A DNA stretch of 64,000 nucleotides from an uncultured Lachnospiraceae bacterium (GCA_948470755.1 CAOKPU010000006.1:7723-71722); one strand, 5' to 3'. Counted from the first letter of the stretch, positions 1,868-45,807 are shown. Program-made: numbers and translations. Notes: generated by a model not told the origin, from the sequence alone.

Positions 1868-1897
1868 CCTTGGATCAGGCTCCTTCTCATATCATAG

Positions 1898-2130
1898 GAT
1901 CCGGGCGTCAAAAGGCCCATCCGGCGGCCCCGCCTGGCAGATGGCACAATAGATTTGTGTACACTCTGTTGCACGGGACATTCCAATGAGCCTCGGAAAG
2001 CGAAAATCGTGTTCAGCAGAGGCTTCCACGATTTTAGAGTCTCATCTCCATCGTGCAAAAGCCGTTTGCACAAATCTATTGCGCCATCTGCCAGGCGGGG
2101 CCGCCGGATGGGCCTTTTGACGCCCGGATC
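1898..2130. repeat. 233-bp near-perfect palindromic element (62-nt arms at 1898-1959 and 2069-2130 with 1 mismatch; the degenerate inner arms continue the hairpin)
   Basis: The reverse complement of 2069-2130 equals 1898-1959 except for one A/G. The element sits between the stop codon at 1867 and the terminator at 2148. The outer ~55 nt recur at 45735. Confidence 0.9.
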
Positions 2131-2685: not shown

Positions 2686-3792
2686 ATGAAAGAAAATAAA
2701 AATGCAAATTTATTGACTCTGGGGATTGCCGTTGTGTTGATCCTGATTATCTGCGGCATCAGCGTAGTCGTCCATCTGCTGAACGAAAAGGAAAGCCTAA
2801 GTACGAGTAGTATGTTGCAGGAGGATATTATAGAATACGCAAACGCTTCCCAGGAGCAAAGCGTGACGGCTTCCGATGTTGTTAAGGAAGAAAAAACAAC
2901 GGGAAATAAAGACGAAGAAGGACAAAAAGGGACGGACGGGCCGCAGGAGCCGGAAAAGGCGCAAGCTTCCGGGGAAGAGCAAGAGCCTGCCGTCATAGTA
3001 AAAGAAGAAAAGGTTCCTGATAAGACGATCATGGAAGAGACGGGGGAAGAGACGGCTTCGCAGGAGGGGCCTACAACGGCAAAATGGCAGAAAGAAGCCG
3101 GGGAAAACCTTGCGGCGGTAGAAATTGACCTGCCCAGGCAAATGTCCGAAATGAAAGGTTATTGGGAAGCCGGGAATATGGAAGCAGTGGAAGATCTGGC
3201 ATACTTGCCGAGATATCGCGCGGCTTCTGAAAAATTGAGCGGTACAACAAAATATTATTATTTTGGCGATACGGATGAAAATAAACGTCCGAACGGTAAA
3301 GGGCTTGCAATGTATACGGATAACCAGTATTATTATGGCGAGTGGGAAAACGGTGTCAGGAGCGGAGGCGGCATGTGGGTGAAGTTCTATGTGTATGACC
3401 AAAATGCAAAAGCAAAGGACAGCATTTATCTGCAGCATAGTTATTCCGGCACATGGGGAAATGACCTGCCAAACGGGGACGGCGCGGAACACTATGACTT
3501 TATTGATGAGAACCTGGAAAGCAATGTAGGCTATAATCGTAATTTTATAGGAAATTTTAAAAACGGCCTTTATCATGGGGAAATCTATATTACTAATTAC
3601 TACAGTGACGGCAATTCTAAGGAATGGAGCGGCACTGCAAAGGACGGAGTGTGGCAGCCTATGGGGGAAAAGGATCAAAAAGGCCAGTTCCCTGTCATTG
3701 TTGATTTGACCGATCCGGATAATTACCAATGGATGGCGGAGAAAGCCAATCGGAATAACGGCGTGGATGGGATCATATCCGCCGCGAAATAA
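2686..3792 (+). CDS. Membrane-anchored MORN-repeat-like protein
   Basis: It has an N-terminal TM helix, a low-complexity acidic linker, and repeated YxGxWxNGxxxGxG-type motifs (YYYGEWENGVRSGGG, GTWGNDLPNGDG, GNFKNGLYHGE). Confidence 0.55.
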   Translation: MKENKNANLLTLGIAVVLILIICGISVVVHLLNEKESLSTSSMLQEDIIEYANASQEQSVTASDVVKEEKTTGNKDEEGQKGTDGPQEPEKAQASGEEQEPAVIVKEEKVPDKTIMEETGEETASQEGPTTAKWQKEAGENLAAVEIDLPRQMSEMKGYWEAGNMEAVEDLAYLPRYRAASEKLSGTTKYYYFGDTDENKRPNGKGLAMYTDNQYYYGEWENGVRSGGGMWVKFYVYDQNAKAKDSIYLQHSYSGTWGNDLPNGDGAEHYDFIDENLESNVGYNRNFIGNFKNGLYHGEIYITNYYSDGNSKEWSGTAKDGVWQPMGEKDQKGQFPVIVDLTDPDNYQWMAEKANRNNGVDGIISAAK

Positions 3793-3812
3793 ACAGTCAG
3801 GGAGGGAAAAAG

Positions 3813-4679
3813 ATGCCTTGGTGTCCAAAATGCAGGAATGAATATGTGGAAGGGATAAAAGTCTGCGCCGACTGCAAAACGGCCTTAGTGGAATCTTTGG
3901 AGGAAGGGGGCCGTATCCCCTTGATTTTCGGAGAGAAAGGACAGATGGAAAGGCTGAAAGGCTTCCTTACATATTCCGGATTCGTTACAGCGGATATATC
4001 GGAGGATGAAAAAGAAGGAGTATATGAATTATATATAGAGGAAGCGGAAAGACAGAAGGCCGGGGCTGCGGTAAGGGTGTTTTTGCAGCAGGAAGCGGAA
4101 GCGGCCGGTAAAGCGGAAGGCGTTTTTCAGGAGGATGCACAGGAAGATACGGAAGTCGGAAAAGCACAAGAGGGGCTGGGGCCGGGGAAAAAAACAGGCA
4201 GCAGCTTTTATCAGGACAGTGCAAAACAGGCGGCGGATAACCGTTCCTCCGGTTACATGCTGATAGTAATTGGCGGCCTTGGCCTGGCGGCGGTTGGCAT
4301 GATAGCGGCAGGGATCATCCGCCTGCCGTCCGGCATGATAAATAAGTATATGCTCTGTTTTGTCATGGGGGCTTTATTCCTTTTATTCTTTATTATGGGG
4401 ATTGTTGCTGTCAAATCCTCCAAGTCGCTGGAAAAAAAGGCGGAGACGGAAAGCATCCTGTTAAGCGAGATAAAACAATGGTGCGGGGAGAATATTTCTG
4501 CAGGAAAAGTCGATGAGGATCTTTTCTGGGGGGAAGAGACGGGGAAAGAAATCAAATATTTTAAACGTACGGATAAAATGAAGAAGATGATTGCCCGCCA
4601 GTTTATGAATCTGGACGATGGGTTTTTAGACTCTTTTGTAGATGATTATTATCAGACGGTTTTTGAAGAAGAAGCTTGA
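3813..4679 (+). CDS. Zinc-ribbon membrane protein of unknown function
   Basis: The N-terminus carries CPKC...CADC, there are two central TM helices, and an RBS (GGGAGGG) lies upstream. Confidence 0.5.
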   Translation: MPWCPKCRNEYVEGIKVCADCKTALVESLEEGGRIPLIFGEKGQMERLKGFLTYSGFVTADISEDEKEGVYELYIEEAERQKAGAAVRVFLQQEAEAAGKAEGVFQEDAQEDTEVGKAQEGLGPGKKTGSSFYQDSAKQAADNRSSGYMLIVIGGLGLAAVGMIAAGIIRLPSGMINKYMLCFVMGALFLLFFIMGIVAVKSSKSLEKKAETESILLSEIKQWCGENISAGKVDEDLFWGEETGKEIKYFKRTDKMKKMIARQFMNLDDGFLDSFVDDYYQTVFEEEA

Positions 4680-4736: not shown

Positions 4737-5216
4737 ATGAGAATCACAATCATAGCGGTAGGAAAGGTAAAAGAGAAATTTTACCGGGATGCTTTTGCGG
4801 AGTATGAAAAAAGGCTTGGAAAGTATTGCCGTGTGGAAGTGGTTGAGGTAGAGGATGAAAAGACCCCGGACAGGGCGGGGGAATCTTTGGAAGATCAAAT
4901 CAAGGAAAAGGAAGCGCTGCGTATTTTAAAATATGTCAAAGAGGAAGCCCATGTGATCGCGCTTGAGATACAAGGAAGGAAAATGGATTCCGTCGCTTTT
5001 GCCAAGAAGCTGGAAAAATTGGCAACCTATGGAACCAGCCATATCCAGTTTATTATTGGCGGCTCTTTAGGGCTGCATGATAAGGTGTCTCAAAGGGCAG
5101 ATGAGAAGATCAGCTTTTCGGATATGACATTTCCTCATCAATTAATGCGTATCCTGTTAGCGGAGCAAATCTACCGAAGTTACCGCATTATCTGCGGGGA
5201 GCCGTATCATAAGTAA
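4737..5216 (+). CDS. rlmH: 23S rRNA (pseudouridine1915-N3)-methyltransferase RlmH
   Basis: The protein is 159 aa, begins MRITIIAVGKVKEKFY, and has the SPOUT C-terminus ...FPHQLMRILLAEQIYRSYRIICGEPYHK. Confidence 0.9.
   Translation: MRITIIAVGKVKEKFYRDAFAEYEKRLGKYCRVEVVEVEDEKTPDRAGESLEDQIKEKEALRILKYVKEEAHVIALEIQGRKMDSVAFAKKLEKLATYGTSHIQFIIGGSLGLHDKVSQRADEKISFSDMTFPHQLMRILLAEQIYRSYRIICGEPYHK
5196..5216. repeat. Left direct repeat (attL-like) GGGGAGCCGTATCATAAGTAA, covering the last rlmH codons
   Basis: It matches 11388-11408 at 20/21 positions. The first 17 nt are perfect and the single mismatch is G/A at position 18. Confidence 0.85.
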
Positions 5217-5224
5217 GTGCGAAA
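5214..5224. repeat. Left terminal inverted repeat TAAGTGCGAAA
   Basis: It is the perfect reverse complement of 11367-11377 (TTTCGCACTTA). Confidence 0.6.
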
Positions 5225-5270
5225 CCGGTTGGAAGTCTCTGGAAATAAAAGAGAATAAGAGTTGTATTTT

Positions 5271-5306
5271 TAACCCCATGGGAGTGTGCGGCTTCCATGG
5301 GGGTTA
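5271..5306 (+). terminator. Hairpin downstream of rlmH, inside the element (possible surrogate terminator)
   Basis: TAACCCCATGG...CCATGGGGGTTA forms a stem with one bulge. The T-tract is weak. Confidence 0.4.
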
Positions 5307-5382
5307 TATTATGACTTTGCACAAAATTTCTATAGTGAAAATTTATATTATTGTGAAATAAAAAAGAAAAGGGGTGATAGGT

Positions 5383-5460
5383 ATGCACGCAGGAATCTTT
5401 TTAGGCGCATGTGCCGCAACGCTGGGTGTATTGGTGGCACTGGAAACCGCAGCAGCTTAA
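5383..5460 (+). CDS. Candidate 25-aa hydrophobic peptide (MHAGIFLGACAATLGVLVALETAAA)
   Basis: The ATG lies 6 nt after AAAGGGGTGA, and a hairpin plus T-tract (about 5491-5525) lies downstream. It is too short for the ORF track and there is no homology evidence. Confidence 0.3.
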   Translation: MHAGIFLGACAATLGVLVALETAAA

Positions 5461-5544
5461 CAGCAAAATTGTATAGGAGCAAAGAAAAGAGGCAGGTAGC
5501 AGGAATGTTATCTGCCTTATTTTTGTGCAAAAAGGAGCATAAGA

Positions 5545-6246
5545 TGGAACGATATACAACCAACACAATGATAATAGAACGGAAAGGCATTTTTGATAAG
5601 AACAGGAAAAAACGGTTTGAGCTGACTATTTACCTGCAAGGACAGCAAACAGAAGAAATGTATTCTGGTAATCGGCCTCAATCCTGCAAGTGATGATATC
5701 AGCAGGCTGGACACGACAACGACTTTTATCCTGAATAATCTGATTCCAATGGGATATGGCACAATTACGATCTGCAATCTTTACGGGGAACTGTTTAAAC
5801 AGCGTTTAAAGCCCCAAGAAGTGCCGAACAACAGGGAGAACCGGAAATACCTGGAGGAAGTGTTAAAACGCGGATTTGATACCATTCTGCTTGGATATGG
5901 CAATACCTTTCTGACCAATAAGTTTGTAAACGGGGAAAAAGAATATTTAAGAAAACTGTTATCGGATTATAAAGAGAAAGTAGTGGATATTGTGGATGAC
6001 AAGGGGGAGTATGAAAGACTGACGGCAGTTCATCCTTTAATGGCAGGAAGATATTTTCCAGACAGGTGGAGGCTCCGGCCTTTTGTCTTTGGGAAGGAGG
6101 AGACAGAGAAATCAGAAAATCCAGGTAACGGAAAGCCGTCAGAGAAAGCGAAGGAATCCCAAAAAGAGGAAGGAGAAAACAAACCAAATGAAGAATGCAG
6201 TACGAATCAAGACCATGAGCCAGTGGTATCTGCTGAAACAGTTTAA
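5545..6246 (+). pseudogene. DUF1643-family gene interrupted by a +1 frameshift (about 5625-5655)
   Basis: The N-terminal part (MERYTT..RFELTIYL) reads in the frame of ORF 5286..5693, with its ATG at 5545 after AAGGAG. The remainder (KKCILVIGLNPASDD..GYGTITICNLYGE..LLGYGN..HPL) reads in the frame of ORF 5749..6246, which is open from about 5625. The LNPS/NL motifs are typical of DUF1643. Confidence 0.65.
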
Positions 6247-6568
6247 CGATTATCTGGGAAAGAAACGAGTTCCCGAAGAGGTAATGAGGGCAATCTGCCA
6301 TATCCTTTATTCAAAAGAATTAGGGAAAGACGGCTATGTGGTTCTGTGCCTGGATAAGATAGCAGATGATTTCTATGGGATAGAGGACGCAGTGGGAATG
6401 TACCCAAACAAACTGAAACTGTCAGAGCGCATAGACGAGATACGGACGAGGAGCAGGAAAGGAAAAATCCGGAGCTGGTATGTGTCATACATAAAAATAA
6501 AGAGGCAGAAGATTCGCCTCATCTATACAACGAAAGGCCAGGGCGATTACAGGAGGGATGGAGAATGA
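6188..6568 (+). CDS. Hypothetical basic protein (start at 6188 or 6215)
   Basis: It is the in-frame part of ORF 6083..6568 lying downstream of the DUF1643 body. Its stop overlaps the next start (ATGA at 6565-6568). No domain was recognised. Confidence 0.45.
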   Translation: MKNAVRIKTMSQWYLLKQFNDYLGKKRVPEEVMRAICHILYSKELGKDGYVVLCLDKIADDFYGIEDAVGMYPNKLKLSERIDEIRTRSRKGKIRSWYVSYIKIKRQKIRLIYTTKGQGDYRRDGE

Positions 6569-7302
6569 CAGGGATTCGGTTTCAAAGCTGGGAGTATTTC
6601 TTATGTTATGTGCAGAAAAGGGAAAAGACTGCACAGGAGAAGGAATGGAGCAATACTTCCAAGTTATTTGATGTGGACTATCTGGAAGCGGATGAGTGGG
6701 AAGGGCTTCAGAAGATGTTATCTGTTACGGATTACGAAGAATTGACAGCAGAGAAGCGTGTGGCTGAGGTAAGGTCATTCCATGTGCCGGAAGAAACAGG
6801 CCGGATGATTTTCTATTCTGTGGGAGAAGAAGATACAGAGGGAGGATATCTGTGCATGGGTTATGGGTTCGTAAATGGAATGGACGTAGAGGATAAGGCC
6901 AACCGATTTGTGCCAATGCCGGAGAGACAGGAGAGGGAGAAAGAATTTTACTATATTGGAACGGAGAATGATTACTGGGAGTATTACCCAATTCTTCAAA
7001 TGTATTTACCAGAGAAAGTGCTGGAATACCTTGCTTGTCAGGTAGACATACTGGATGGCAATTATGGGGCAGACCGGGATGTAGAAGGGGGAATGGGCGG
7101 CTTTTGCGCTGTTATACCCAAAATGGATGAAGCCGCAAAGAAAGCCTACAGTCAGATACTGGAAAGACATTATATCCAGGAATCCATGTACGAATACCTT
7201 GATACGGTCACGGTTGACGGTAAATACTGGGCAGAAGTTTTGTATCTGACGAACAATGACTATGGGATTGTCTTAATCTATCAGAAGGGGGTGGAAGCAT
7301 GA
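6565..7302 (+). CDS. Hypothetical acidic, aromatic-rich 245-aa protein
   Basis: The ORF is clean and is translationally coupled at both ends (ATGA overlaps at 6565 and 7299). No domain was recognised. Confidence 0.6.
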   Translation: MTGIRFQSWEYFLCYVQKREKTAQEKEWSNTSKLFDVDYLEADEWEGLQKMLSVTDYEELTAEKRVAEVRSFHVPEETGRMIFYSVGEEDTEGGYLCMGYGFVNGMDVEDKANRFVPMPERQEREKEFYYIGTENDYWEYYPILQMYLPEKVLEYLACQVDILDGNYGADRDVEGGMGGFCAVIPKMDEAAKKAYSQILERHYIQESMYEYLDTVTVDGKYWAEVLYLTNNDYGIVLIYQKGVEA

Positions 7303-7445
7303 TTTTAGGATTATTAACAGCAGTGGGAAGTGCCATAACATCAACGGTCATCATTGAATCCATGACGACTGGCATTGGTTTGGGAATTTCTATCTATACG
7401 GCTTCAAAGTGTGCAAGACAGAGTGGCAGGACACGGAGAAAGTAA
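7299..7445 (+). CDS. Candidate 48-aa membrane peptide with a basic tail (MILGLLTAVGSAITSTVIIESMTTGIGLGISIYTASKCARQSGRTRRK)
   Basis: Its ATG overlaps the upstream TGA (ATGA), and a strong terminator follows it. It is below the ORF-track length cut-off. Confidence 0.45.
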   Translation: MILGLLTAVGSAITSTVIIESMTTGIGLGISIYTASKCARQSGRTRRK

Positions 7446-7451
7446 GGGAAA

Positions 7452-7494
7452 AGACTATGTGGGGTGGCTGATAATTCCCACATAGTCTGTTTTC
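7452..7494 (+). terminator. Rho-independent terminator of the four-gene operon
   Basis: A 12-bp stem AGACTATGTGGG / CCCACATAGTCT is followed by GTTTTCT. Confidence 0.65.
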
Positions 7495-7871
7495 TAACTT
7501 AAATTTCTGAATCTATATTTCGCATGATTTATTCCCGGATACTGTTTTGAATAATTGCGATATTGTTAGAGTTGGTGTAATTTTAATCCTTTCGTTATTT
7601 CCTTTTGCTGCGAGATAAAAAAGCAGTTTTTTTAAATTATTTTTTCAGCAGTAGTAAAAGTTATTTTTTTTATTATATTTTATGAAGTGAAGAATTTGTA
7701 AGACATCATATATTTGGAATGTCTGCCAGCAACAATATCAGACAGCCCAACCACTTATCAAGACGGTTAAGAGAATTGGAAACCGGTTTGTATTATGCGG
7801 GAATCTCTGTGGAGATAGGAAGAATGAAAGGGGAGCGATTTATAAAAATTTATAAAAAAGATATGGAATAA

Positions 7872-7999
7872 GACGATAAGGACAATAAGGACGATAAAAA
7901 ACAGAAAAAACAGACAATATGAAAAAGTTATCGCCAATAAAAAAAGTATTGCTATAAAAAATATTTTTTGTTAAATTATCGTCCTTACCGTCCTTATTG
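7872..7999. repeat. Inverted clusters of (A/G)(A/G)TAAGGAC repeats flanking an A-rich spacer
   Basis: 7872-7897 reads GACGATAAGGACAATAAGGACGATAA. The reverse complement of 7976-7999 reads CAATAAGGACGGTAAGGACGATAA. About 78 nt of AT-rich sequence lies between them. Confidence 0.7.
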
Positions 8000-8223
8000 A
8001 CCTGGTTTAAATAATCATGCCTGTGTGTGGGAGGAATAGGAACAGTGAATGATCGGAAATCGAATGAATGATTAGAAATGGTTATGACAATTCTGTCACA
8101 ACTTATTGTTGAATTTTATTCCAAAGAGAAGGAATCGTAAATACATAGGAAAATTCAGACAGGAAAAGATTTGGCTCCTGGTCTGGGAAGGCGACTGGAA
8201 TATATATTATAAATTTGAAATAA

Positions 8224-9821
8224 ATGAGGAAAGGCAGGGACAGCAAAATGTCTGACATAATAACCAAAAAAGTGGCAATTTATTGCCGTGTATCAACACA
8301 GGAACAGGCGGAGGAAGGTTATTCCCTGGAAGAGCAGCAGCGTCTAATCCGTGAATACTGTGTAAACCATCACATGGAGGTTGTGAAAGTATATCAGGAT
8401 GCAGGAATCAGCGGCAAAGATATCCGGCACAGGCCAGCCATGCAGCAGTTATTAGAGGACGTTTCCAAAAAAGAATTTGATTTGGTCATGAGCTGGAAGA
8501 TTAACCGAATCAGCCGGAAATTATCGGACGCAATCAAAATCGTGGAGACATTAGAAAAATATGGAATCAGCTACCAGTCCTATTCAGAACCTTTTGAATC
8601 CAGTACACCAGCCGGAAAAATGCAGTTCCAGATGATGGCGTTGGTGGGAGAATTTGAGAGGAATACCATTGCCCAGAATGTAAAAATGGGAATGAGGGCA
8701 AAGGCTGTGTCCGGGGAATGGTGCAGAGGGATTCCGCCTTTTGGGTATCACTGGACAGCAATGGAAGGGACAGAAAATCATGGAAGAAGAAAATCAAGGC
8801 TGGAGGTAGTAGAAAGAGAAGCAGAGGCAGTGCGGCTTATCTTTCAGCTCTATGCGTCTGGAAAGGGATATAAGGCGATTGTAGGCAGGATTAACAAACG
8901 GGGATACCGGACAAAGAAGGATAACGCTTTTTCTGTGGCACAGATAAAAACAATCCTGACAAATCCGGTATATATTGGGAAAGTAAGGTATGATGTAAGG
9001 AGGGACTGGAACGAAAAACGAAGGAAAAATATCAACCCGAATCCCATTATTGCAGATGGAAAACATGAAGCAATCATATCAGAAGAATTATGGGAACAGG
9101 TTCAGTTTATGATTTCCCAGAAGAGTGGAAAACCAGCCAGAATCTATGACGGGGAATATCCGCTGACAGGTATCCTGAAATGCCCGGAGTGCGGCGCAGG
9201 CATGGTAATTTCCAGGACAACGAACAGAATCAAAGACGGCAGTAAAAGAAGGATTACCTATTATGCCTGTGGAAACTGGAAAAATAAAGGCACTGCTGTC
9301 TGCCACGGCAACATGATACGGGTGGAAAAGGCAAATGCCTTCGTGTACCATCAACTGGATAAGCTGTTAAGTGATGAAAAATTTTTTAAAGAGGTGGCAG
9401 GCAGAGTAAAGAACTCTATGAGGACGGCGAGATTTCCAGGGATGAATTTATAACCCGCAGAGAAGAACTGAACCGGCAGATTTGTGAGCTTCAAGAGAAA
9501 CAGACGGAAACATCCATGGCGATCTTGGAAGAAGGGAAGAAAGAAATTCCACAGGAAACTATCCGGGAGATATTAAAAAATTTCAGCAGGATTTTATCCG
9601 GCGACATTGACCAAACCATCCGAAAACGGCTGCTGCACCTTTTGATTACAGAGATAACAATCGACCAATACAGGAACATTGATTCCATAAAATTAAAATT
9701 ATCGGATGAACTGGTTCAGTTCTTACAGGGCTATGACGGCACACCCCCAGACGGTGCGCCGTCTGTTTTTATGTTTGGGAGATTGGGGATTAAGACCATG
9801 GATTTGGAGCTTGTGATTTGA
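8224..9821 (+). pseudogene. Large serine recombinase, apparently split by a frameshift near 9390-9415
   Basis: It has a resolvase-type N-terminus (VAIYCRVSTQEQ) and a recombinase domain with a zinc ribbon (CPECGAGM...YYACGNW...CHG). Frame 1 stops at 9453. The expected continuation (ELYEDGEISRDEFITRREELNRQ...) is open in another frame from 9390 to 9821. Confidence 0.85.
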
Positions 9822-9850
9822 AGAATAAAAATGAGAAAGAGGATAAAAAG

Positions 9851-10423
9851 ATGATGACAAACAATCTGAATCAGTATATTAGGGTGGAATATGAAAAGTT
9901 AAAGACAGAGACGGAGCAGAGGGAGTTTGTGGAAAAATTCCGCTTTTTGATGATGGCAAAGGATAACGCTTTTTCCGATTACTATTCGAACCGTAACCTG
10001 ACAAAAGCAGAATTTTACTCCGTTGCGGATACCGTTTATGACTTGAACAATCTCTGGATGCTGTCCGGATTTATCCGCCAGAACCGGCAGGTCTTGTTCC
10101 AGGAGATTCAAACCAGTATGGACGGCCTGAAAAGACCAGATTTCACGGAAACCTGCAAGTTTGGAAAAGATACCATGCTGTCAAGAATGTTCCAGGTCAT
10201 GGAGAATTTTCGTTTCAATGACTGTATGGTGGCAGAGGGTACGGGATTGGGCTATAGCGTGGCAACCCGGAGGATGAAGGCATACGCATTTACCACAAAG
10301 AGCGGAAAAAATGTGCCGCAGATAATCTTACAGGGGAACTGGGTGGAACAGTGGGGATTTGAGGCCGGGTGCAGTGTCTCTGTGGAGTGCTATCAGAATA
10401 AACTGGTGATTTTGAAAGACTAG
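9851..10423 (+). CDS. Protein with an unknown ~140-aa N-terminal domain fused to a SymE/AbrB-like C-terminal domain
   Basis: The C-terminus (..RRMKAYAFTTKSGKNVPQIILQGNWVEQWGFEAGCSVSVECYQNKLVILK) resembles the SymE toxin / SpoVT-AbrB fold signature. The ATG is at 9851, and the ORF-track start at 9818 is a TTG. Confidence 0.55.
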   Translation: MMTNNLNQYIRVEYEKLKTETEQREFVEKFRFLMMAKDNAFSDYYSNRNLTKAEFYSVADTVYDLNNLWMLSGFIRQNRQVLFQEIQTSMDGLKRPDFTETCKFGKDTMLSRMFQVMENFRFNDCMVAEGTGLGYSVATRRMKAYAFTTKSGKNVPQIILQGNWVEQWGFEAGCSVSVECYQNKLVILKD

Positions 10424-10456
10424 GAGAAAAACTCCAAAAGACAGGTTCCATGCTTA

Positions 10457-10485
10457 TTGTAATTTGCCGGAAGGCTGTGTATAAT
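10457..10485 (+). promoter_or_regulatory. Sigma-70-like promoter upstream of the Rpn-type gene
   Basis: TTGTAA (10457-10462), a 17-nt spacer, then TATAAT (10480-10485). Confidence 0.45.
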
Positions 10486-10551
10486 AAGAATAGAAGAATA
10501 CAAAGCTTTCCGGCAGTATTTATGTTAGTTAGGAAGAAAGCAGGTAGATAA

Positions 10552-11349
10552 ATGGAAAACATAGAAGCAAAGCAGCCAAAATGGGAAGAATTAGGTATAT
10601 CCAATGACTTTTTATTCGGAAAGGTCATGCAGAATTCAGAATTGTGTAAAGAGTTGTTACAGAGGATTCTTCCAGATTTGGAGATTGAGCGTATTGAGTA
10701 CCCGGAATTGCAGAAGGCAATTAAAGAGGACTATGAAGCAAAAGGTATCCGTTTGGATGTGTATATAAATGATGGAAAGGGCACTGTATATGATATCGAA
10801 ATGCAATCGGTTACATCTAAATATTTACCAAGGAGAAGCAGATATTACCAGAGTATGATAGATTTACAGTTAGTAGATAAAGGGCAGGATTATGATACCT
10901 TGAATAATAGTTATATTATCTTTATCTGCCTGTCGGACTTATTTGGAAAAGGCCGTTATCTGTACACCTTTGAGAATATCTGCAAAGAAGATTCGGAGGT
11001 CATGCTGAATGATGGGACAAAGAAATTATTTCTAAATGCAGATGGAAAGAATGGGGCAGTAAGCGGGGAATTAAAAGCGTTTTTAGATTATGTGGCAGGG
11101 ATACCATCAGAAGATACATTTGTGAAGAAACTTGAGTATGCTGTGGAGAAGGCAAAGCAGAACCGGGAATGGAGGCGTGAGTATATGACGTTGTTAATGC
11201 GTGATAAAGAGAATCAAAAAATCGGAGAAAAAAAGCTGGCTAAACTGATAATGTTATTAAATAAGGATAATCGGTTAACTGATATTGTCAAAGTTTCACA
11301 AGATGAAGAATACCGCCAAAAACTTTATATAGAATACCATATTATCTAA
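10552..11349 (+). CDS. Rpn-family recombination-promoting nuclease / PD-(D/E)XK putative transposase
   Basis: The N-terminus ..NDFLFGKVMQNSELCKELLQRIL.. and ..IRLDVYINDGKGTVYDIEMQ.. are typical of the YhgA/Rpn PD-(D/E)XK family. Confidence 0.8.
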   Translation: MENIEAKQPKWEELGISNDFLFGKVMQNSELCKELLQRILPDLEIERIEYPELQKAIKEDYEAKGIRLDVYINDGKGTVYDIEMQSVTSKYLPRRSRYYQSMIDLQLVDKGQDYDTLNNSYIIFICLSDLFGKGRYLYTFENICKEDSEVMLNDGTKKLFLNADGKNGAVSGELKAFLDYVAGIPSEDTFVKKLEYAVEKAKQNREWRREYMTLLMRDKENQKIGEKKLAKLIMLLNKDNRLTDIVKVSQDEEYRQKLYIEYHII

Positions 11350-11366
11350 GATAATATTATGCGATT

Positions 11367-11377
11367 TTTCGCACTTA
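11367..11377. repeat. Right terminal inverted repeat TTTCGCACTTA
   Basis: It is the perfect reverse complement of 5214-5224. Confidence 0.6.
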
Positions 11378-11387
11378 GATACGTTAT

Positions 11388-11408
11388 GGGGAGCCGTATC
11401 ATAAATAA
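11388..11408. repeat. Right direct repeat (attR-like) GGGGAGCCGTATCATAAATAA
   Basis: It matches 5196-5216 at 20/21 positions and would encode the same GEPYHK-stop ending as rlmH. Confidence 0.85.
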
Positions 11409-11427
11409 AAAGGGCATGTTCCCCGGA

Positions 11428-11460
11428 GGGTTTGCTTCCATCGCAAAGCCTTTCTTTTTT
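11428..11460 (+). terminator. Likely native rlmH terminator, displaced ~6.2 kb by the insertion
   Basis: GGGTTTGC-loop-GCAAAGCC (one mismatch) is followed by TTTCTTTTTT, starting 20 nt after the right repeat. Confidence 0.5.
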
Positions 11461-11566
11461 ATACTCTATAGCAGCAAGGCTTTTTTATGGAATGAAAAAA
11501 ACGTCCGGCAGGGGAGGAATAGCAGAAAAGTAGTATTCTTTGGCAAAACGGAACATATATTATTCC

Positions 11567-11872
11567 ATGATGAGAAACAAAAAATTAACCGGAAAACAGA
11601 AACTGGAAAGAAGAAAAGAAATCATCGTGGAATCCTTAAAGCTCCCAAAAGATTCCATGCTGGGGGCTTCTATTGTCACAGTGACAGGGAACAGGGACGC
11701 TTTTGTGGAAAATTATAAAGGGATTCTGGAATATTCGCCGGAAGCGATCGTGCTGCAGGGAAAAACGTGCCAAATCAGCATTTTAGGAAAAAAAATGTCG
11801 ATCGATTATTATACGAACGAAGACATGAAAATTACAGGAAATATTGAATGCGTCCGCTATCATAACGGATAA
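11567..11872 (+). CDS. yqfC: Sporulation protein YqfC
   Basis: It is a YabP/YqfC-type small protein (..ASIVTVTGNRDAFVENYKGILEYSPEAIVL..) lying directly upstream of yqfD. The ATG is at 11567 within ORF 11540..11872. Confidence 0.8.
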   Translation: MMRNKKLTGKQKLERRKEIIVESLKLPKDSMLGASIVTVTGNRDAFVENYKGILEYSPEAIVLQGKTCQISILGKKMSIDYYTNEDMKITGNIECVRYHNG

Positions 11873-11940
11873 AGGGATTCTGATGCAAGCGGCAGGGGGA
11901 GAGCATGGGTTTGGCAATGAAGGGTAAGAGGGGATAAGAT

Positions 11941-13239
11941 ATGCTTCAGTTCATACAATATTTGAAAGGTTATGTCACTATTATGGTATGGGGATATTCC
12001 CCGGAGCGGTTTATGAACCTATGCAGCAATCATGATATTCTTCTCTGGAATATCGAAAGCCATGGGGAATATTACACCATGTGCATTACGGTGAAAGGAT
12101 TTAAAAAACTAAAAGGGATTGTAAAGAAAACAGGAACAAAGGTGGCCATACAAAAGCGTTGCGGACTGCCTTTTTTTGTGCCTAAGATGAAAAGAAGGAA
12201 GATTTTCCTGATAGGCCTGGCCGGAAGCCTGATTTTCTGGATGTGGATGTCCACATTTATCTGGGCGGTGGATATTACCGGGAATTACTCGGTTTCTGAA
12301 GATATTTTCATGGATTTCCTAATGGAAAATGATATTTATGTAGGAATGAAAAGGAAAAAAGTAAATATTGAAGAGTTGGAAAAGAAAATACGGCAGGATT
12401 TTGAGATCGTAACCTGGACTTCGGCCAAAATAGACGGGACCCGTTTGGAAATCCAGGTGCGGGAAAACGAAGTGGGCGGGAATCCTGAAGTTGAGGGGAA
12501 AAAAGAGGACCGGATGGAAACGGAACTGGAAAAGGGCGGAGCCGGTTCCGATCTGGTTGCGGAAGAAGACGGGGTAATCGTAAGCATGGTTACGAGGCAG
12601 GGGGTGCCTCAGGTCAGCATAGGCATGGAAGTCAAAAAAGGGGATATATTGGTTTCCGGCAGCGTGCCTGTCTATAATGAAGACGCTACCGTAAAATTTT
12701 ATCAGTATTATGACGCGGATGCCGATATCTACATACGCAGGCAGTTAAAATACAAAGAGGAACTTCCGCTTCATTATGAAAAGAAGGAATATACAGGAGA
12801 AGAGAAAAAGGAAATGGTATTTGCCGTTATGGATAAAGACTTTGTATTTCGTCTTGGAAAAATAAATTATGAAAATTTTGATAAAGTCACGGATAAAAAG
12901 CAGTTAAAGCTTTTGAAAAATTTTTATCTTCCGCTTTATTTTGGCAGCAGCATAAACAGGGAATATGTGTGGAAGGATAATATTTATACGAAAGAAGAGG
13001 TAAAAACGATATTTTCTGAAAAATTAATAAAATATATCGCTGGTTTGGAGGAAAAAGGGGTACAAATAATTAAAAAAAATGTTACAATAAATAAGAATCA
13101 GAAAAAATGGCAAATGAATATGGATTTCCAGATTGTGGAGAAAACAGGAAAAAGCGTGGCGGCGCCGCCGAAGATGACGACGGAAGAGATATCGGAAAAA
13201 GAAGAAGGGGAAATAGCGGTGCAGCAGCCAGAGGATTAA
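11941..13239 (+). CDS. yqfD: Sporulation protein YqfD
   Basis: The N-terminus MLQFIQYLKGYVTIMVWGYSPERFMNLC is typical of YqfD, there is a single TM helix, and it occupies the conserved position between yqfC and phoH. Confidence 0.8.
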   Translation: MLQFIQYLKGYVTIMVWGYSPERFMNLCSNHDILLWNIESHGEYYTMCITVKGFKKLKGIVKKTGTKVAIQKRCGLPFFVPKMKRRKIFLIGLAGSLIFWMWMSTFIWAVDITGNYSVSEDIFMDFLMENDIYVGMKRKKVNIEELEKKIRQDFEIVTWTSAKIDGTRLEIQVRENEVGGNPEVEGKKEDRMETELEKGGAGSDLVAEEDGVIVSMVTRQGVPQVSIGMEVKKGDILVSGSVPVYNEDATVKFYQYYDADADIYIRRQLKYKEELPLHYEKKEYTGEEKKEMVFAVMDKDFVFRLGKINYENFDKVTDKKQLKLLKNFYLPLYFGSSINREYVWKDNIYTKEEVKTIFSEKLIKYIAGLEEKGVQIIKKNVTINKNQKKWQMNMDFQIVEKTGKSVAAPPKMTTEEISEKEEGEIAVQQPED

Positions 13240-45734: not shown

Positions 45735-45807
45735 ATCATAGGATCCGGGTACCAAAAGGCCCATCCGGCGGCCCCGTCCGGCAAATTGCACTGCAATTTC
45801 CTATGAT
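45735..45807. repeat. Solo copy of the arm of the 1898-2130 palindromic element
   Basis: ATCATAGGATCCGGGTACCAAAAGGCCCATCCGGCGGCCCCGTCCGGCAAATTGCA aligns with 1891-1946 with a few substitutions. It is closed by ATCATAGGA / TCCTATGAT. Confidence 0.75.

What the first reader, a model, noticed from the sequence alone, without database searches (positions are those of the whole stretch)
5196..11408. SCC-like integrative element at the 3' end of rlmH in a non-staphylococcal Firmicute
The last codons of rlmH (GGGGAGCCGTATCATAAGTAA, 5196-5216) recur 6,192 bp downstream (GGGGAGCCGTATCATAAATAA, 11388-11408; 20/21 identical). Both copies encode GEPYHK-stop. A terminator-like hairpin (11428-11460) and then conserved sporulation genes follow the second copy directly. 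The DNA between the copies is visibly AT-richer and carries a large serine recombinase plus mobile-element-type cargo.

Established knowledge: staphylococcal SCC elements, including SCCmec, are inserted by Ccr large serine recombinases at the 3' end of orfX/rlmH, and they leave direct repeats that include the ..TATCATAA.. end of that gene. From memory, the repeat seen here closely resembles that integration site sequence.

Inference: this is a compact rlmH-targeting element of the same logic in a Clostridia-like genome, where such elements are not a standard annotated class.
Basis: partly seen in the sequence, partly recalled or inferred. Interest (0 to 1): 0.85.

Follow-up and report, generated by a model that had tools for sequence, protein, structure and literature searches.

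The report
Decayed SCC-like island at rlmH

Summary
The 21-nt repeat lies at 5196-5216 and 11388-11408, 20/21 identical, with no chance matches expected. The predicted empty site exists: three independent metagenome contigs with an identical RlmH read rlmH..GGGGAGCCGTATCATAAATAA and then the sequence from 11409 onward. Three others carry the island.

The island's ends rebuild a ~50-bp attP with dyad symmetry centred on GA, the first two bases of the rlmH Glu codon. GA is also the dinucleotide published for CcrAB.

Intact homologues of the recombinase score best against the NCBIfam CcrB and CcrC models (380 and 352 bits). They are 42% identical to S. aureus CcrB and 30% or less to phage integrases. 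In 79 related loci from Lachnospiraceae, Clostridium, Romboutsia and Bacillales, the rlmH-end motif occurs 90 times on the recombinase strand and never on the other.

This copy is a fossil:
- the recombinase has a 97-nt frameshifting deletion;
- a ~3.1-kb primase-helicase-like gene is deleted;
- the DUF1643 gene is frameshifted.

SCC-like elements at rlmH are published for Enterococcus, Bacillus and others, and a Tet(P) island flanked by GAACCGTATCA at rlmH is published for C. difficile. I class it as a new member of a known kind.

The parts
4737..5216 (+). rlmH (23S rRNA methyltransferase H), the target gene. It stays intact after insertion.
   Evidence: Pfam SPOUT_MTase, E 4.6e-59, full length. 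The identical 159-aa protein is encoded at both empty and occupied sites.
5175..5224 (+). attL (B-O-P'). The host half-site is followed by the central GA at 5199-5200 and then the element half-site, which rebuilds codons E-P-Y-H-K-stop. The direct-repeat copy is 5196-5216.
   Evidence: (D9, I5). The AAG Lys codon at 5211-5213 comes from the element; empty sites and attR read AAA.
5217..5305 (+). Conserved left-end segment, containing a 12-bp-stem hairpin at 5274-5302.
   Evidence: 77-85% identical to the left ends of relatives L012, L015, L016, L022 and L068. The hairpin comes from the terminator scan. A role as a replacement rlmH terminator is inferred.
5383..5460 (+). Small hydrophobic ORF (25 aa, MHAGIFLGACAATLGVLVALETAAA).
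   Evidence: Sequence and conservation in L013. Function unknown.
5544..6246 (+). DUF1643 pseudogene. One extra base near 5627 splits it into 5544-5693 and 5749-6246.
   Evidence: Pfam DUF1643 matches only profile positions 45-134. Alignment to the intact 233-aa gene of L013 shows the 1-nt insertion. The independent contig L002 matches the window without any gap.
6188..6568 (+). ORF of 126 aa, unknown function, conserved in relatives.
   Evidence: Gene call in L002. No Pfam, NCBIfam, PHROG or PADLOC hit. No similarity to SCCmec DUF960.
6565..7302 (+). ORF of 245 aa, unknown function, acidic, restricted to Lachnospiraceae.
   Evidence: Only 44 homologues and no Pfam domain. AF2 model pLDDT 68.6. 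No PDB fold match with E <= 0.001.
7299..7445 (+). Small hydrophobic ORF (48 aa, basic tail), followed by an inverted repeat at 7440-7500.
   Evidence: I2; L002 gene call.
7462..7871 (+). Deletion scar. About 3.1 kb present in relatives is missing between 7462 and 7716. 7719-7871 holds the last 50 codons of the lost 831-aa primase-helicase-like gene.
   Evidence: blastn against L008, L012, L013 and L017. The L013 ORF 7129-9624 has Walker A GPKGSSKTT, and its N-terminus hits phrog_19.
7876..7997 (.). Inverted AAGGAC-type repeats (22-nt arms, 91% complementary) in the AT-rich spacer upstream of the recombinase gene.
   Evidence: I3, I8. Conserved in L007. A role as operator or origin is only a guess.
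8248..9821 (+). CcrB/CcrC-like large serine recombinase pseudogene. A 97-nt deletion at 9410|9411 removes about 32 aa of the coiled-coil and shifts the frame. This leaves ORF 8224/8248-9453 and a C-terminal piece in another frame that ends at 9821.
   Evidence: Pfam domains. Three-frame translation. Alignment to L007. The same break appears against every relative. The same deletion is in independent contigs L087, L090 and L091.
9818..10423 (+). ORF of 201 aa with a C-terminal SymE/AbrB-like domain. Its start overlaps the recombinase stop.
   Evidence: Pfam SymE_toxin, E 5.4e-9. It keeps this position in L007, L087 and L090.
10552..11349 (+). Rpn-family PD-(D/E)XK nuclease / putative transposase gene, the last gene of the element.
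   Evidence: Pfam PDDEXK_2, E 2.7e-15. TIGR01784 Rpn family, 106.6 bits, above its cut-off.
11367..11416 (+). attR (P-O-B'). The element half-site TTTCGCACTTAGATACGTTATGG is followed by the central GA at 11391-11392 and then the host half-site. The direct-repeat copy is 11388-11408.
   Evidence: (I5).
11426..11460 (+). Weak hairpin plus T-run. It is host sequence, the likely native rlmH terminator.
   Evidence: Present unchanged at the empty site in L001. Fold -15.2 kcal/mol, z -1.2.
11567..13239 (+). Host genes yabP (11567-11872) and yqfD (11941-13239). They lie directly next to rlmH at empty sites.
   Evidence: Pfam YabP and YqfD. Gene order in L001.

Best explanation
The interval 5217-11387, together with the 21-nt duplicated core, is a cassette-chromosome-type genomic island. 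A CcrB/CcrC-like large serine recombinase inserted it into the 3' end of rlmH in an uncultured Lachnospiraceae bacterium.

The mechanism is inferred by homology and from the junctions. A circular form carried a ~50-bp attP (TTTCGCACTTAGATACGTTATGG-GGAG-CCGTATCATAAGTAAGTGCGAAA). The recombinase paired it with attB inside rlmH, cut both at the central GA of the Glu155 codon, and exchanged strands. The element's P' arm carries its own copy of E-P-Y-H-K-stop, so RlmH is unchanged. The host copy of those codons is left behind at attR.

The copy in this window can no longer move by itself. Its recombinase gene has a 97-nt frameshifting deletion in the coiled-coil region. The primase-helicase-like gene found in intact relatives has been deleted. 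The DUF1643 gene is frameshifted. In effect it is the equivalent of a staphylococcal pseudo-SCC: a recently inactivated island that is still polymorphic (present or absent) in the population.

Shown: the insertion, the exact junctions, the empty site, the affinity of the recombinase to Ccr, the link between this recombinase family and the rlmH end, and the three lesions.

Inferred: the catalytic steps, the GA crossover, and the replicative role of the lost helicase. How the element moves between cells is unknown.
For: - Empty and occupied alleles occur with an identical RlmH. Breakpoints are at 5216 and 11388 with a 21-nt overlap.
- The A/G difference in the repeat places the crossover 5' of position 5213.
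- The reconstructed attP has its best dyad symmetry, 16/22, centred on GA. No other centre exceeds 10/22.
- In relatives, 38 of 38 symmetric junctions centre on the same GA.
- GA is the central dinucleotide published for CcrAB (PMC10581047, citing Misiura 2013).
- The window's attL core matches the attSCC core of an excised SCCmec circle at 17 of 18 bases (GAGCCGTATCATAAGTAA against GAGGCGTATCATAAGTAA).
- Recombinase affinity: NCBIfam CcrB 380 bits, CcrC 352, XisF 141, CcrA 113. It is 42% identical to S. aureus CcrB, E 4e-112. Phage integrases reach 30% at most.
- Family behaviour: in 79 loci totalling 1.23 Mb, the rlmH-end motif occurs 90 times on the recombinase strand and 0 times on the other. 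Of these, 17 are at the end of rlmH, 38 are P-O-P' junctions and 35 are attR-like. Fifty-nine loci have a site downstream of the recombinase, at a median distance of 1,660 nt.
- Lesions. They recur in independent assemblies.
- dN/dS of the recombinase against L007 is 0.11-0.15, so inactivation is recent.
- DUF1643, a component of the SCC ccr gene complex, is present. The intact homologue in relative L013 is 29% identical to the SCCmec DUF1643, E 1e-10.
Against: No excised circle or recombination activity was observed; the mechanism rests on homology. The recombinase scores well below the NCBIfam equivalog cut-offs (900 bits), so it is a relative of Ccr and not an orthologue. Apart from the recombinase and DUF1643, no gene resembles the SCCmec ccr complex. 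L090 carries the same broken recombinase in another context, so the damaged element has still been reshuffled, by homologous recombination or by a recombinase acting in trans. I could not retrieve the primary paper for the position of the CcrAB GA.
Confidence: 0.85

Rival explanations
1. The island is still an active mobile element in this genome. It would be excised and reinserted either by a recombinase of the same family encoded elsewhere in the genome, or by the truncated 409-aa protein together with the separate C-terminal ORF.
For: Both att sites are intact. The island is polymorphic among near-identical strains. L090 shows the same broken recombinase next to a different Rpn allele and an extra cassette. 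Tandem arrays in relatives show that cassettes without a recombinase are common.
Against: The deletion removes part of the coiled-coil, which large serine recombinases need for synapsis (established knowledge of the family). There is no second recombinase of this family in the 64-kb window. No attP junction was found, although the collection searched does not contain this species. The polymorphism is explained just as well by an insertion that predates the damage.
Confidence: 0.08
2. It is a degraded phage satellite or prophage remnant that happens to use a serine integrase, and not a cassette-chromosome element.
For: Intact relatives combine an integrase with a primase-helicase-like gene and small unknown ORFs, a layout also seen in phage-inducible islands. 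The recombinase hits the general PHROG integrase family phrog_95.
Against: No capsid, terminase, portal, lysis or repressor gene was recognised in the window element or in L013. The best phage integrases are only about 30% identical, against 42% for CcrB. Target site, att core and DUF1643 are all shared with SCC.
Confidence: 0.04
3. The DNA entered by homologous or microhomology-mediated recombination through the short rlmH-end repeat, with no site-specific recombinase. This was proposed for the Tet(P) island of C. difficile.
For: PMC12232799 interprets GAACCGTATCA repeats flanking Tet(P) at rlmH in this way. The recombinase here is non-functional.
Against: The element ends are inverted repeats that form a symmetric ~50-bp attP. 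The same architecture recurs with this recombinase family in 68 of 79 loci, always in one orientation. A 17-21-nt repeat is short for RecA-dependent recombination. The junctions are base-precise.
Confidence: 0.02
4. The insertion is an assembly chimera or mis-join.
For: The sequences come from metagenome assemblies with low coverage, 1.5-5x.
Against: Independent assemblies from different samples reproduce attL (L002, L004, L006), attR (L087, L088) and the interior at 99.9-100% identity.
Confidence: 0.01

Closest known systems
Staphylococcal cassette chromosome (SCC/SCCmec), especially single-recombinase ccrC types and recombinase-less pseudo-SCC
   Same: - Inserted at the homologous position in the 3' end of rlmH/orfX.
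- The direct repeats contain ..GNCGTATCATAA.., matching an SCCmec attSCC core at 17 of 18 bases.
- The central GA falls on the Glu codon.
- The target gene is rebuilt by the element.
- The ends are imperfect inverted repeats.
- The recombinase is closest to CcrB/CcrC.
- A DUF1643 gene is present.
- In intact relatives a helicase-type gene lies upstream of the recombinase.
- Relatives form tandem arrays with cassettes that lack a recombinase.
   Different: - The host is a sporulating Lachnospiraceae.
- The recombinase is only 42% identical to CcrB over 393 aa and falls below the equivalog cut-offs.
- There is one recombinase and a strongly symmetric attP, where CcrAB is a pair acting on an asymmetric site.
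- The primase-helicase-like protein of relatives shows no sequence similarity to Cch (DUF927).
- DUF960, SAUGI and CCPol-MP homologues are not detected.
- A SymE-like and an Rpn-like gene are conserved at the right end.
- No resistance cargo is present.
- This copy is non-functional.
Enterococcus cassette chromosome (ECC; PMC6222049) and the SCC-like islands of Bacillus, Paenibacillus, Listeria and others surveyed in PMC10061031
   Same: They are non-staphylococcal Bacillota elements inserted at the 3' end of rlmH by Ccr-like large serine recombinases. They are flanked by repeats of the rlmH end and are sometimes tandem composites. In some cases empty sites were used to confirm them.
   Different: ECC uses a ccrAB pair and is 30 kb or larger with variable cargo. 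The PMC10061031 set was selected for Pol-SSB pairs, which are absent here. In that survey the two class-Clostridia examples (C. difficile, C. perfringens) sat in ssrA, not rlmH.
Tet(P) island at the 3' end of rlmH in C. difficile, C. perfringens, Romboutsia and others (PMC12232799)
   Same: These are class Clostridia hosts. The insertion is at the rlmH 3' end and is flanked by GAACCGTATCA, the same core as GAGCCGTATCA here and as the motif in the Clostridium and Romboutsia loci.
   Different: That island is a ~4.8-kb resistance cassette with no recombinase reported, and it was explained by homologous recombination. No tet genes are present here. I did not test a link between the two.

Membership tests
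SCC (staphylococcal cassette chromosome, IWG-SCC sense) | Integrated at the integration site sequence in the 3' end of orfX/rlmH | tested here: met
   The junction lies inside the last six codons of rlmH, and the empty site was recovered.
SCC (staphylococcal cassette chromosome, IWG-SCC sense) | Flanked by direct repeats containing the integration site sequence, with inverted repeats at the ends | tested here: met
   The direct repeat is 20/21 identical. It matches the published staphylococcal repeat GAAGC(A/G)TATCATAA(G/A)TGA at 15 of 18 bases and an SCCmec attSCC at 17 of 18. The terminal inverted repeat has 23-nt arms, 78% complementary (I5).
SCC (staphylococcal cassette chromosome, IWG-SCC sense) | Carries functional ccr gene(s) (ccrAB or ccrC) | tested here: not met
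   The best NCBIfam hits are CcrB (380 bits) and CcrC (352 bits), but the equivalog cut-off is 900. The window copy is also a pseudogene.
SCC (staphylococcal cassette chromosome, IWG-SCC sense) | ccr gene complex neighbours (cch/cch2 helicase, DUF950 or CCPol-MP, DUF960, DUF1643, SAUGI) | tested here: inconclusive
   A frameshifted DUF1643 is present. Relatives have a helicase-type gene, but it shows no sequence similarity to Cch. DUF960 and SAUGI were not detected. I made no fold-level comparison of the helicase.
SCC (staphylococcal cassette chromosome, IWG-SCC sense) | Host is Staphylococcus or a close relative | tested here: not met
   The flanks carry sporulation genes yabP and yqfD. The best named PhoH hits are Lachnospiraceae, Kineothrix and Acetatifactor.
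Large serine recombinase (serine integrase) integrative elements | Resolvase catalytic domain with the catalytic Ser, Recombinase domain, zinc ribbon and coiled-coil | tested here: met
   The three Pfam domains are present. The R-V-S-T motif is invariant in alignment A1. Intact homologues of 550-560 aa have the coiled-coil, which is truncated in the window.
Large serine recombinase (serine integrase) integrative elements | attP of about 50 bp with imperfect dyad symmetry around a central dinucleotide; attL and attR are hybrids of attP and attB | tested here: met
   The reconstructed attP scores 16/22 symmetry centred on GA, and attB was recovered from empty sites.
Large serine recombinase (serine integrase) integrative elements | Demonstrated attP x attB recombination or excised circle | not testable with these tools
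   No reads or experiments were available. The attP junction search found nothing, but the collection lacks this species.
Pseudo-SCC-like relic (att-flanked island at rlmH without a working recombinase) | Both att sites present and recombinase absent or inactivated | tested here: met
   attL and attR are intact. The recombinase has a 97-nt frameshifting deletion that also appears in independent samples.
Prophage or phage satellite | Virion, packaging or lysis genes, or capsid-hijacking genes | tested here: not met
   Apart from the integrase and transposase-type matches of the recombinase and Rpn gene, the only PHROG hits are an unknown-function family for the SymE-like ORF and a DnaB-like helicase family for the helicase of relative L013. 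Pfam finds none either. The unknown ORFs leave a small residue of doubt.

The most novel reading that the evidence does not exclude
The CcrB-like, single-recombinase clade to which this relic belongs may be a large and essentially undescribed family of rlmH-targeting cassette elements across anaerobic Clostridia (Lachnospiraceae, Clostridium, Romboutsia) and some Bacillales. In Lachnospiraceae it has its own backbone: DUF1643, two orphan ORFs, an 831-aa primase-helicase-like protein with no Pfam domain, the recombinase, a SymE-like ORF and an Rpn nuclease. It builds tandem arrays that capture cassettes lacking a recombinase. On this reading, rlmH is a general gene-capture platform in gut anaerobes, and the published Tet(P) islands at rlmH would be passengers of this system.
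Probability: 0.55. Interest if true: 0.55.

Novelty: new member of a known kind. Interest (0 to 1): 0.4.

Why it matters
It shows that the SCC strategy extends into sporulating gut Lachnospiraceae and many Clostridium species. That strategy is a Ccr-type serine recombinase inserting cassettes into the end of rlmH while rebuilding the gene. The att core and central dinucleotide are almost the same as in staphylococci.

This gives a ready annotation rule for these genomes: search for GARCCNTAYCAYAA downstream of rlmH. It also offers a mechanistic explanation for resistance islands already reported at rlmH in C. difficile and C. perfringens. The recombinases have defined ~50-bp sites and could be tested as integration tools.

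The copy in this window is a decaying relic without obvious adaptive cargo, so its own biological importance is small.

Tried and rejected
- Function of ORF245 (6565-7302): only 44 homologues, all Lachnospiraceae, with no domain. The AF2 model is mediocre (pLDDT 68.6), and Foldseek against the PDB gave nothing with E <= 0.001. No function assigned.
- Sequence similarity of the other element genes to the SCCmec ccr-complex genes (Cch/DUF927, DUF960, SAUGI): none.
- PADLOC scan of the cargo: only a marginal, non-credible hit for the Rpn-like protein. There is no evidence for a defence system.
- In-silico search for the excised-circle junction in metagenome contigs: 0 hits. The control search with the 21-mer found 81 rlmH ends of other species and none from this species. 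The negative result is therefore uninformative.
- Primary papers on CcrAB sites and non-staphylococcal SCC-like elements (PMC3714108, PMC5052118) are not held. I relied on papers that cite them.
- Rfam, tRNA and tandem-repeat scans found nothing associated with the element.
- The hairpin after attR is not a convincing intrinsic terminator by the scan or by z-score.
- I did not build a full phylogeny that includes CcrC. No CcrC sequence was available, so I used the NCBIfam CcrC model score.

Full report
OBSERVATION

The last six codons and stop of rlmH (4737-5216; Pfam SPOUT_MTase, E 4.6e-59) read GGGGAGCCGTATCATAAGTAA at 5196-5216. The sequence recurs as GGGGAGCCGTATCATAAATAA at 11388-11408. 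Allowing up to three mismatches, these are the only two copies in the 64-kb window, against 0.00 expected from shuffles.

The interval has 40.8% GC against 46.0% for the rest of the window. None of 186 equally long windows elsewhere is as low. It is AT-richer, but modestly; only 7501-8000 is strongly so, at 29%.

The hairpin after the second copy is weak (z = -1.2). The host genes yabP, yqfD and phoH follow. The closest named PhoH relatives are Lachnospiraceae MAGs, Kineothrix and Acetatifactor, so the host is an uncultured Lachnospiraceae.

THE INSERTION IS REAL

An exact-sequence look-up of the 159-aa RlmH returned six metagenome contigs.
- In L001, L003 and L005, rlmH is followed 159 nt later by yabP.
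- blastn places the breakpoints at window 5216 and 11388, with the 21-nt repeat shared by both alignments.
- L002, L004 and L006 carry the island at 98.8-99.99% identity.
- L087, L088 and L091 reproduce the interior at 100% identity, and L087 and L088 extend across attR.

The island is therefore a true presence/absence polymorphism in one species and not an assembly artefact. The empty site and attR read AAA at the Lys codon, and attL reads AAG. The G therefore came from the element, and the crossover lies 5' of position 5213.

ATT SITES

The element ends are inverted repeats: 5202-5224 against 11367-11389 (I5). Joining the left part of attR to the right part of attL rebuilds an attP, TTTCGCACTTAGATACGTTATGG-GGAG-CCGTATCATAAGTAAGTGCGAAA. 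Its best dyad symmetry is 16/22, centred on the GA at 5199-5200 / 11391-11392. No other centre scores above 10/22. That GA is the first two bases of the Glu codon of ...G-E-P-Y-H-K-stop.

In the related loci described below, 38 of 38 strongly symmetric junctions centre on the same GA. GA is also the central dinucleotide reported for CcrAB (PMC10581047, citing Misiura et al. 2013).

An excised SCCmec circle deposited as a plasmid (NZ_AP024743.1) has the attSCC ...GCAGAGGCGTATCATAAGTAATGAGG.... Its core, GAGGCGTATCATAAGTAA, matches the window's attL core at 17 of 18 bases.

THE RECOMBINASE

ORF 8224-9453 has Resolvase, Recombinase and Zn_ribbon_recom domains, but it stops after 409 aa. The rest of the protein continues in another frame to 9821. 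All homologues are 550-560 aa long.

Alignment with the closest one (P0002 on L007, 93% identical) shows a 97-nt deletion at 9410|9411. It removes about 32 residues of the coiled-coil and shifts the frame. The same break appears against every Lachnospiraceae relative. The same deleted allele occurs in the independent contigs L087, L090 and L091, so it is not a sequencing error.

dN/dS against L007 is 0.11-0.15, and L090 differs from the window by one base across the recombinase. The inactivation is therefore recent.

The intact homologue P0002 scores as follows:

| Comparison | Result |
|---|---|
| NCBIfam CcrB | 380 bits, full length |
| NCBIfam CcrC | 352 bits |
| NCBIfam XisF | 141 bits |
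| NCBIfam CcrA | 113 bits |
| Real S. aureus CcrB | 42% identity over 393 aa, E 4e-112 |
| Real S. aureus CcrA | 23% identity |
| Phage serine integrases | 30% identity at most |
| Best solved structure (SPbeta YokA) | 97 bits |

Both the CcrB and CcrC scores are far below the equivalog cut-off of 900 bits. The recombinase is a CcrB/CcrC-like enzyme but not an orthologue.

THE FAMILY TARGETS rlmH

A scan of one genome per species with an alignment of this recombinase returned 79 loci. They come from Lachnospiraceae, Clostridium, Romboutsia, Hathewaya and several Bacillales, at 44-91% identity.
- Each locus has a single CcrB-like gene and no CcrA-like partner.
- rlmH lies upstream on the same strand within the 10-kb flank in about 19 loci.
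- The motif GAR[CG]CNTAYCAYAR occurs 90 times on the recombinase strand and 0 times on the opposite strand in 1.23 Mb. It is present in 68 of the 79 loci.
- Of the 90 sites, 17 are at the end of rlmH (attL), 38 are symmetric P-O-P' junctions and 35 are attR-like.
- Fifty-nine loci have a site downstream of the recombinase, at a median distance of 1,660 nt.

The P-O-P' junctions mark tandem arrays, which are the equivalent of SCC composite islands. Examples are L007 6133-6185 and the junction in L090.

THIS COPY IS DECAYED

The closest full-length relative is L013, whose left part is 89% identical to the window over 5106-7462. Its order is attL, DUF1643 (233 aa), a 126-aa ORF, a 275-aa ORF matching the window's 245-aa ORF, an 831-aa ORF, the recombinase (560 aa), a 141-aa ORF in the position of the window's SymE-like gene, an Rpn-like nuclease, and the next att site.

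The 831-aa protein has no Pfam domain. It has a Walker A motif (GPKGSSKTT), and its N-terminus matches the N-terminus of a PHROG annotated as a DnaB-like helicase. I read it as a primase-helicase, which is an inference.

The window carries three lesions relative to L013:
- About 3.1 kb between 7462 and 7716 is missing. Only the last 50 codons of the 831-aa gene remain (7719-7871).
- The DUF1643 gene has one extra base near 5627, which splits it. The independent contig L002 matches the window without any gap.
- The recombinase carries the 97-nt deletion described above.

The remaining genes are two orphan ORFs (6188-6568 and 6565-7302), two small hydrophobic ORFs, a SymE/AbrB-domain ORF that overlaps the recombinase stop (9818-10423), and an Rpn-family PD-(D/E)XK nuclease (10552-11349; TIGR01784, 106.6 bits). 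The scans were. No resistance, defence, phage-structural or conjugation gene was recognised.

COMPARISON WITH KNOWN SYSTEMS

Six features are shared with SCC:
- the target position in rlmH;
- the repeat core;
- the GA centre;
- reconstruction of rlmH by the element;
- the CcrB/CcrC-like recombinase;
- a DUF1643 gene. DUF1643 belongs to the SCC ccr gene complex (PMC10581047) and is seen next to ccrB in NZ_AP024743.1. The L013 copy is 29% identical to it, E 1e-10.

Other genes show no similarity to Cch, DUF960 or SAUGI. Strict SCC membership fails on two points, the host and ccr orthology and function. In how it works, the copy corresponds to a pseudo-SCC.

The idea is not new:
- ECC in Enterococcus faecium is inserted at rlmH by ccrAB-Ent (PMC6222049).
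- SCC-like islands downstream of rlmH, confirmed by empty sites, are described in Bacillus, Paenibacillus, Listeria and others. [quoted passage not shown]
- A 4.8-kb Tet(P) island flanked by GAACCGTATCA at the rlmH 3' end is reported in C. difficile, C. perfringens, Romboutsia and others. It was attributed to homologous recombination, and no recombinase was mentioned (PMC12232799).
- Searches of the held literature found no description of such elements in Lachnospiraceae.

VERDICT

The element is a recently inactivated member of a widespread family of rlmH-targeting cassette elements that use a CcrB/CcrC-like recombinase. I class it as a new member of a known kind. Interest is moderate: the copy itself is a relic. 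The breadth of the family in Clostridia and the nearly identical att core across classes are the useful results.

Noticed in passing
L007 2643-4502: In the closest intact relative, a group II intron (an ORF with RVT_1 and GIIM domains at 3130-4413) is inserted in the last codons of the recombinase gene and replaces its C-terminal ~20 residues.
   Followed up: partly
window 11010-11354; L007 7233-7576; L013 14354-14697: The last ~345 nt of the Rpn-like gene recur at ~93% identity near the right end of neighbouring cassettes that lack a recombinase (acetyltransferase cassettes); in L007 a P arm follows the copy. This suggests a conserved right-end module that lets passenger cassettes be recognised. 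The Rpn gene is also far more divergent and mosaic than the recombinase (pS 0.70 against 0.18, window against L007).
   Followed up: partly
L090 1-5477 and L089 1-1250: There are population variants of the island. L090 has the same broken recombinase but another Rpn allele, a P-O-P' junction at ~2628 and a further cassette (abhydrolase, DUF218, methyltransferase). L089 joins left-end sequence (window 5236-5317) directly to 10439-11489.
   Followed up: partly
window 7876-7897 / 7976-7997: Inverted AAGGAC-type repeats (22-nt arms, 91% complementary, 78-nt spacer) lie in the 29%-GC spacer between the helicase remnant and the recombinase gene. They are conserved in L007. They could be an operator or an origin.
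   Followed up: no
window 5383-5460 and 7299-7445: Two small hydrophobic ORFs (25 aa, and 48 aa with a basic tail) are each conserved in a relative (L013 and L007 respectively). The second is followed by a 24-nt-arm hairpin at 7440-7500. They resemble type I toxin-like membrane peptides, but this was not tested.
   Followed up: no
window 1894-1964 / 2064-2134 (and 45735-45776): A 71-nt inverted repeat, 94% complementary with a 99-nt spacer, lies in an intergenic region upstream of the Dabb-domain gene. A partial third copy of the arm is at 45735-45776. It looks like a MITE or REP-type element and has no Rfam match.
   Followed up: partly
L007 7775-7835: A (CAGA)n microsatellite of about 13 units follows the att-like site at the end of the second cassette.
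   Followed up: no
L007 7630-7665: The last att-like site of the L007 array has a normal P arm up to ..TTATGGAG, followed by AGATAAACGATCTG in place of the rlmH-end sequence. The divergence starts right after the GA, which fits that crossover point. The site suggests use of a secondary, non-rlmH target or a later rearrangement.
   Followed up: no
L094-L174 (metagenome contigs): The exact 21-mer GGGGAGCCGTATCATAARTAA ends rlmH in many other uncultured species. In a frequent human-gut one it is followed by a P'-like arm (GAGTGCGAGGAAAA), so occupied sites appear common in human gut metagenomes.
   Followed up: partly
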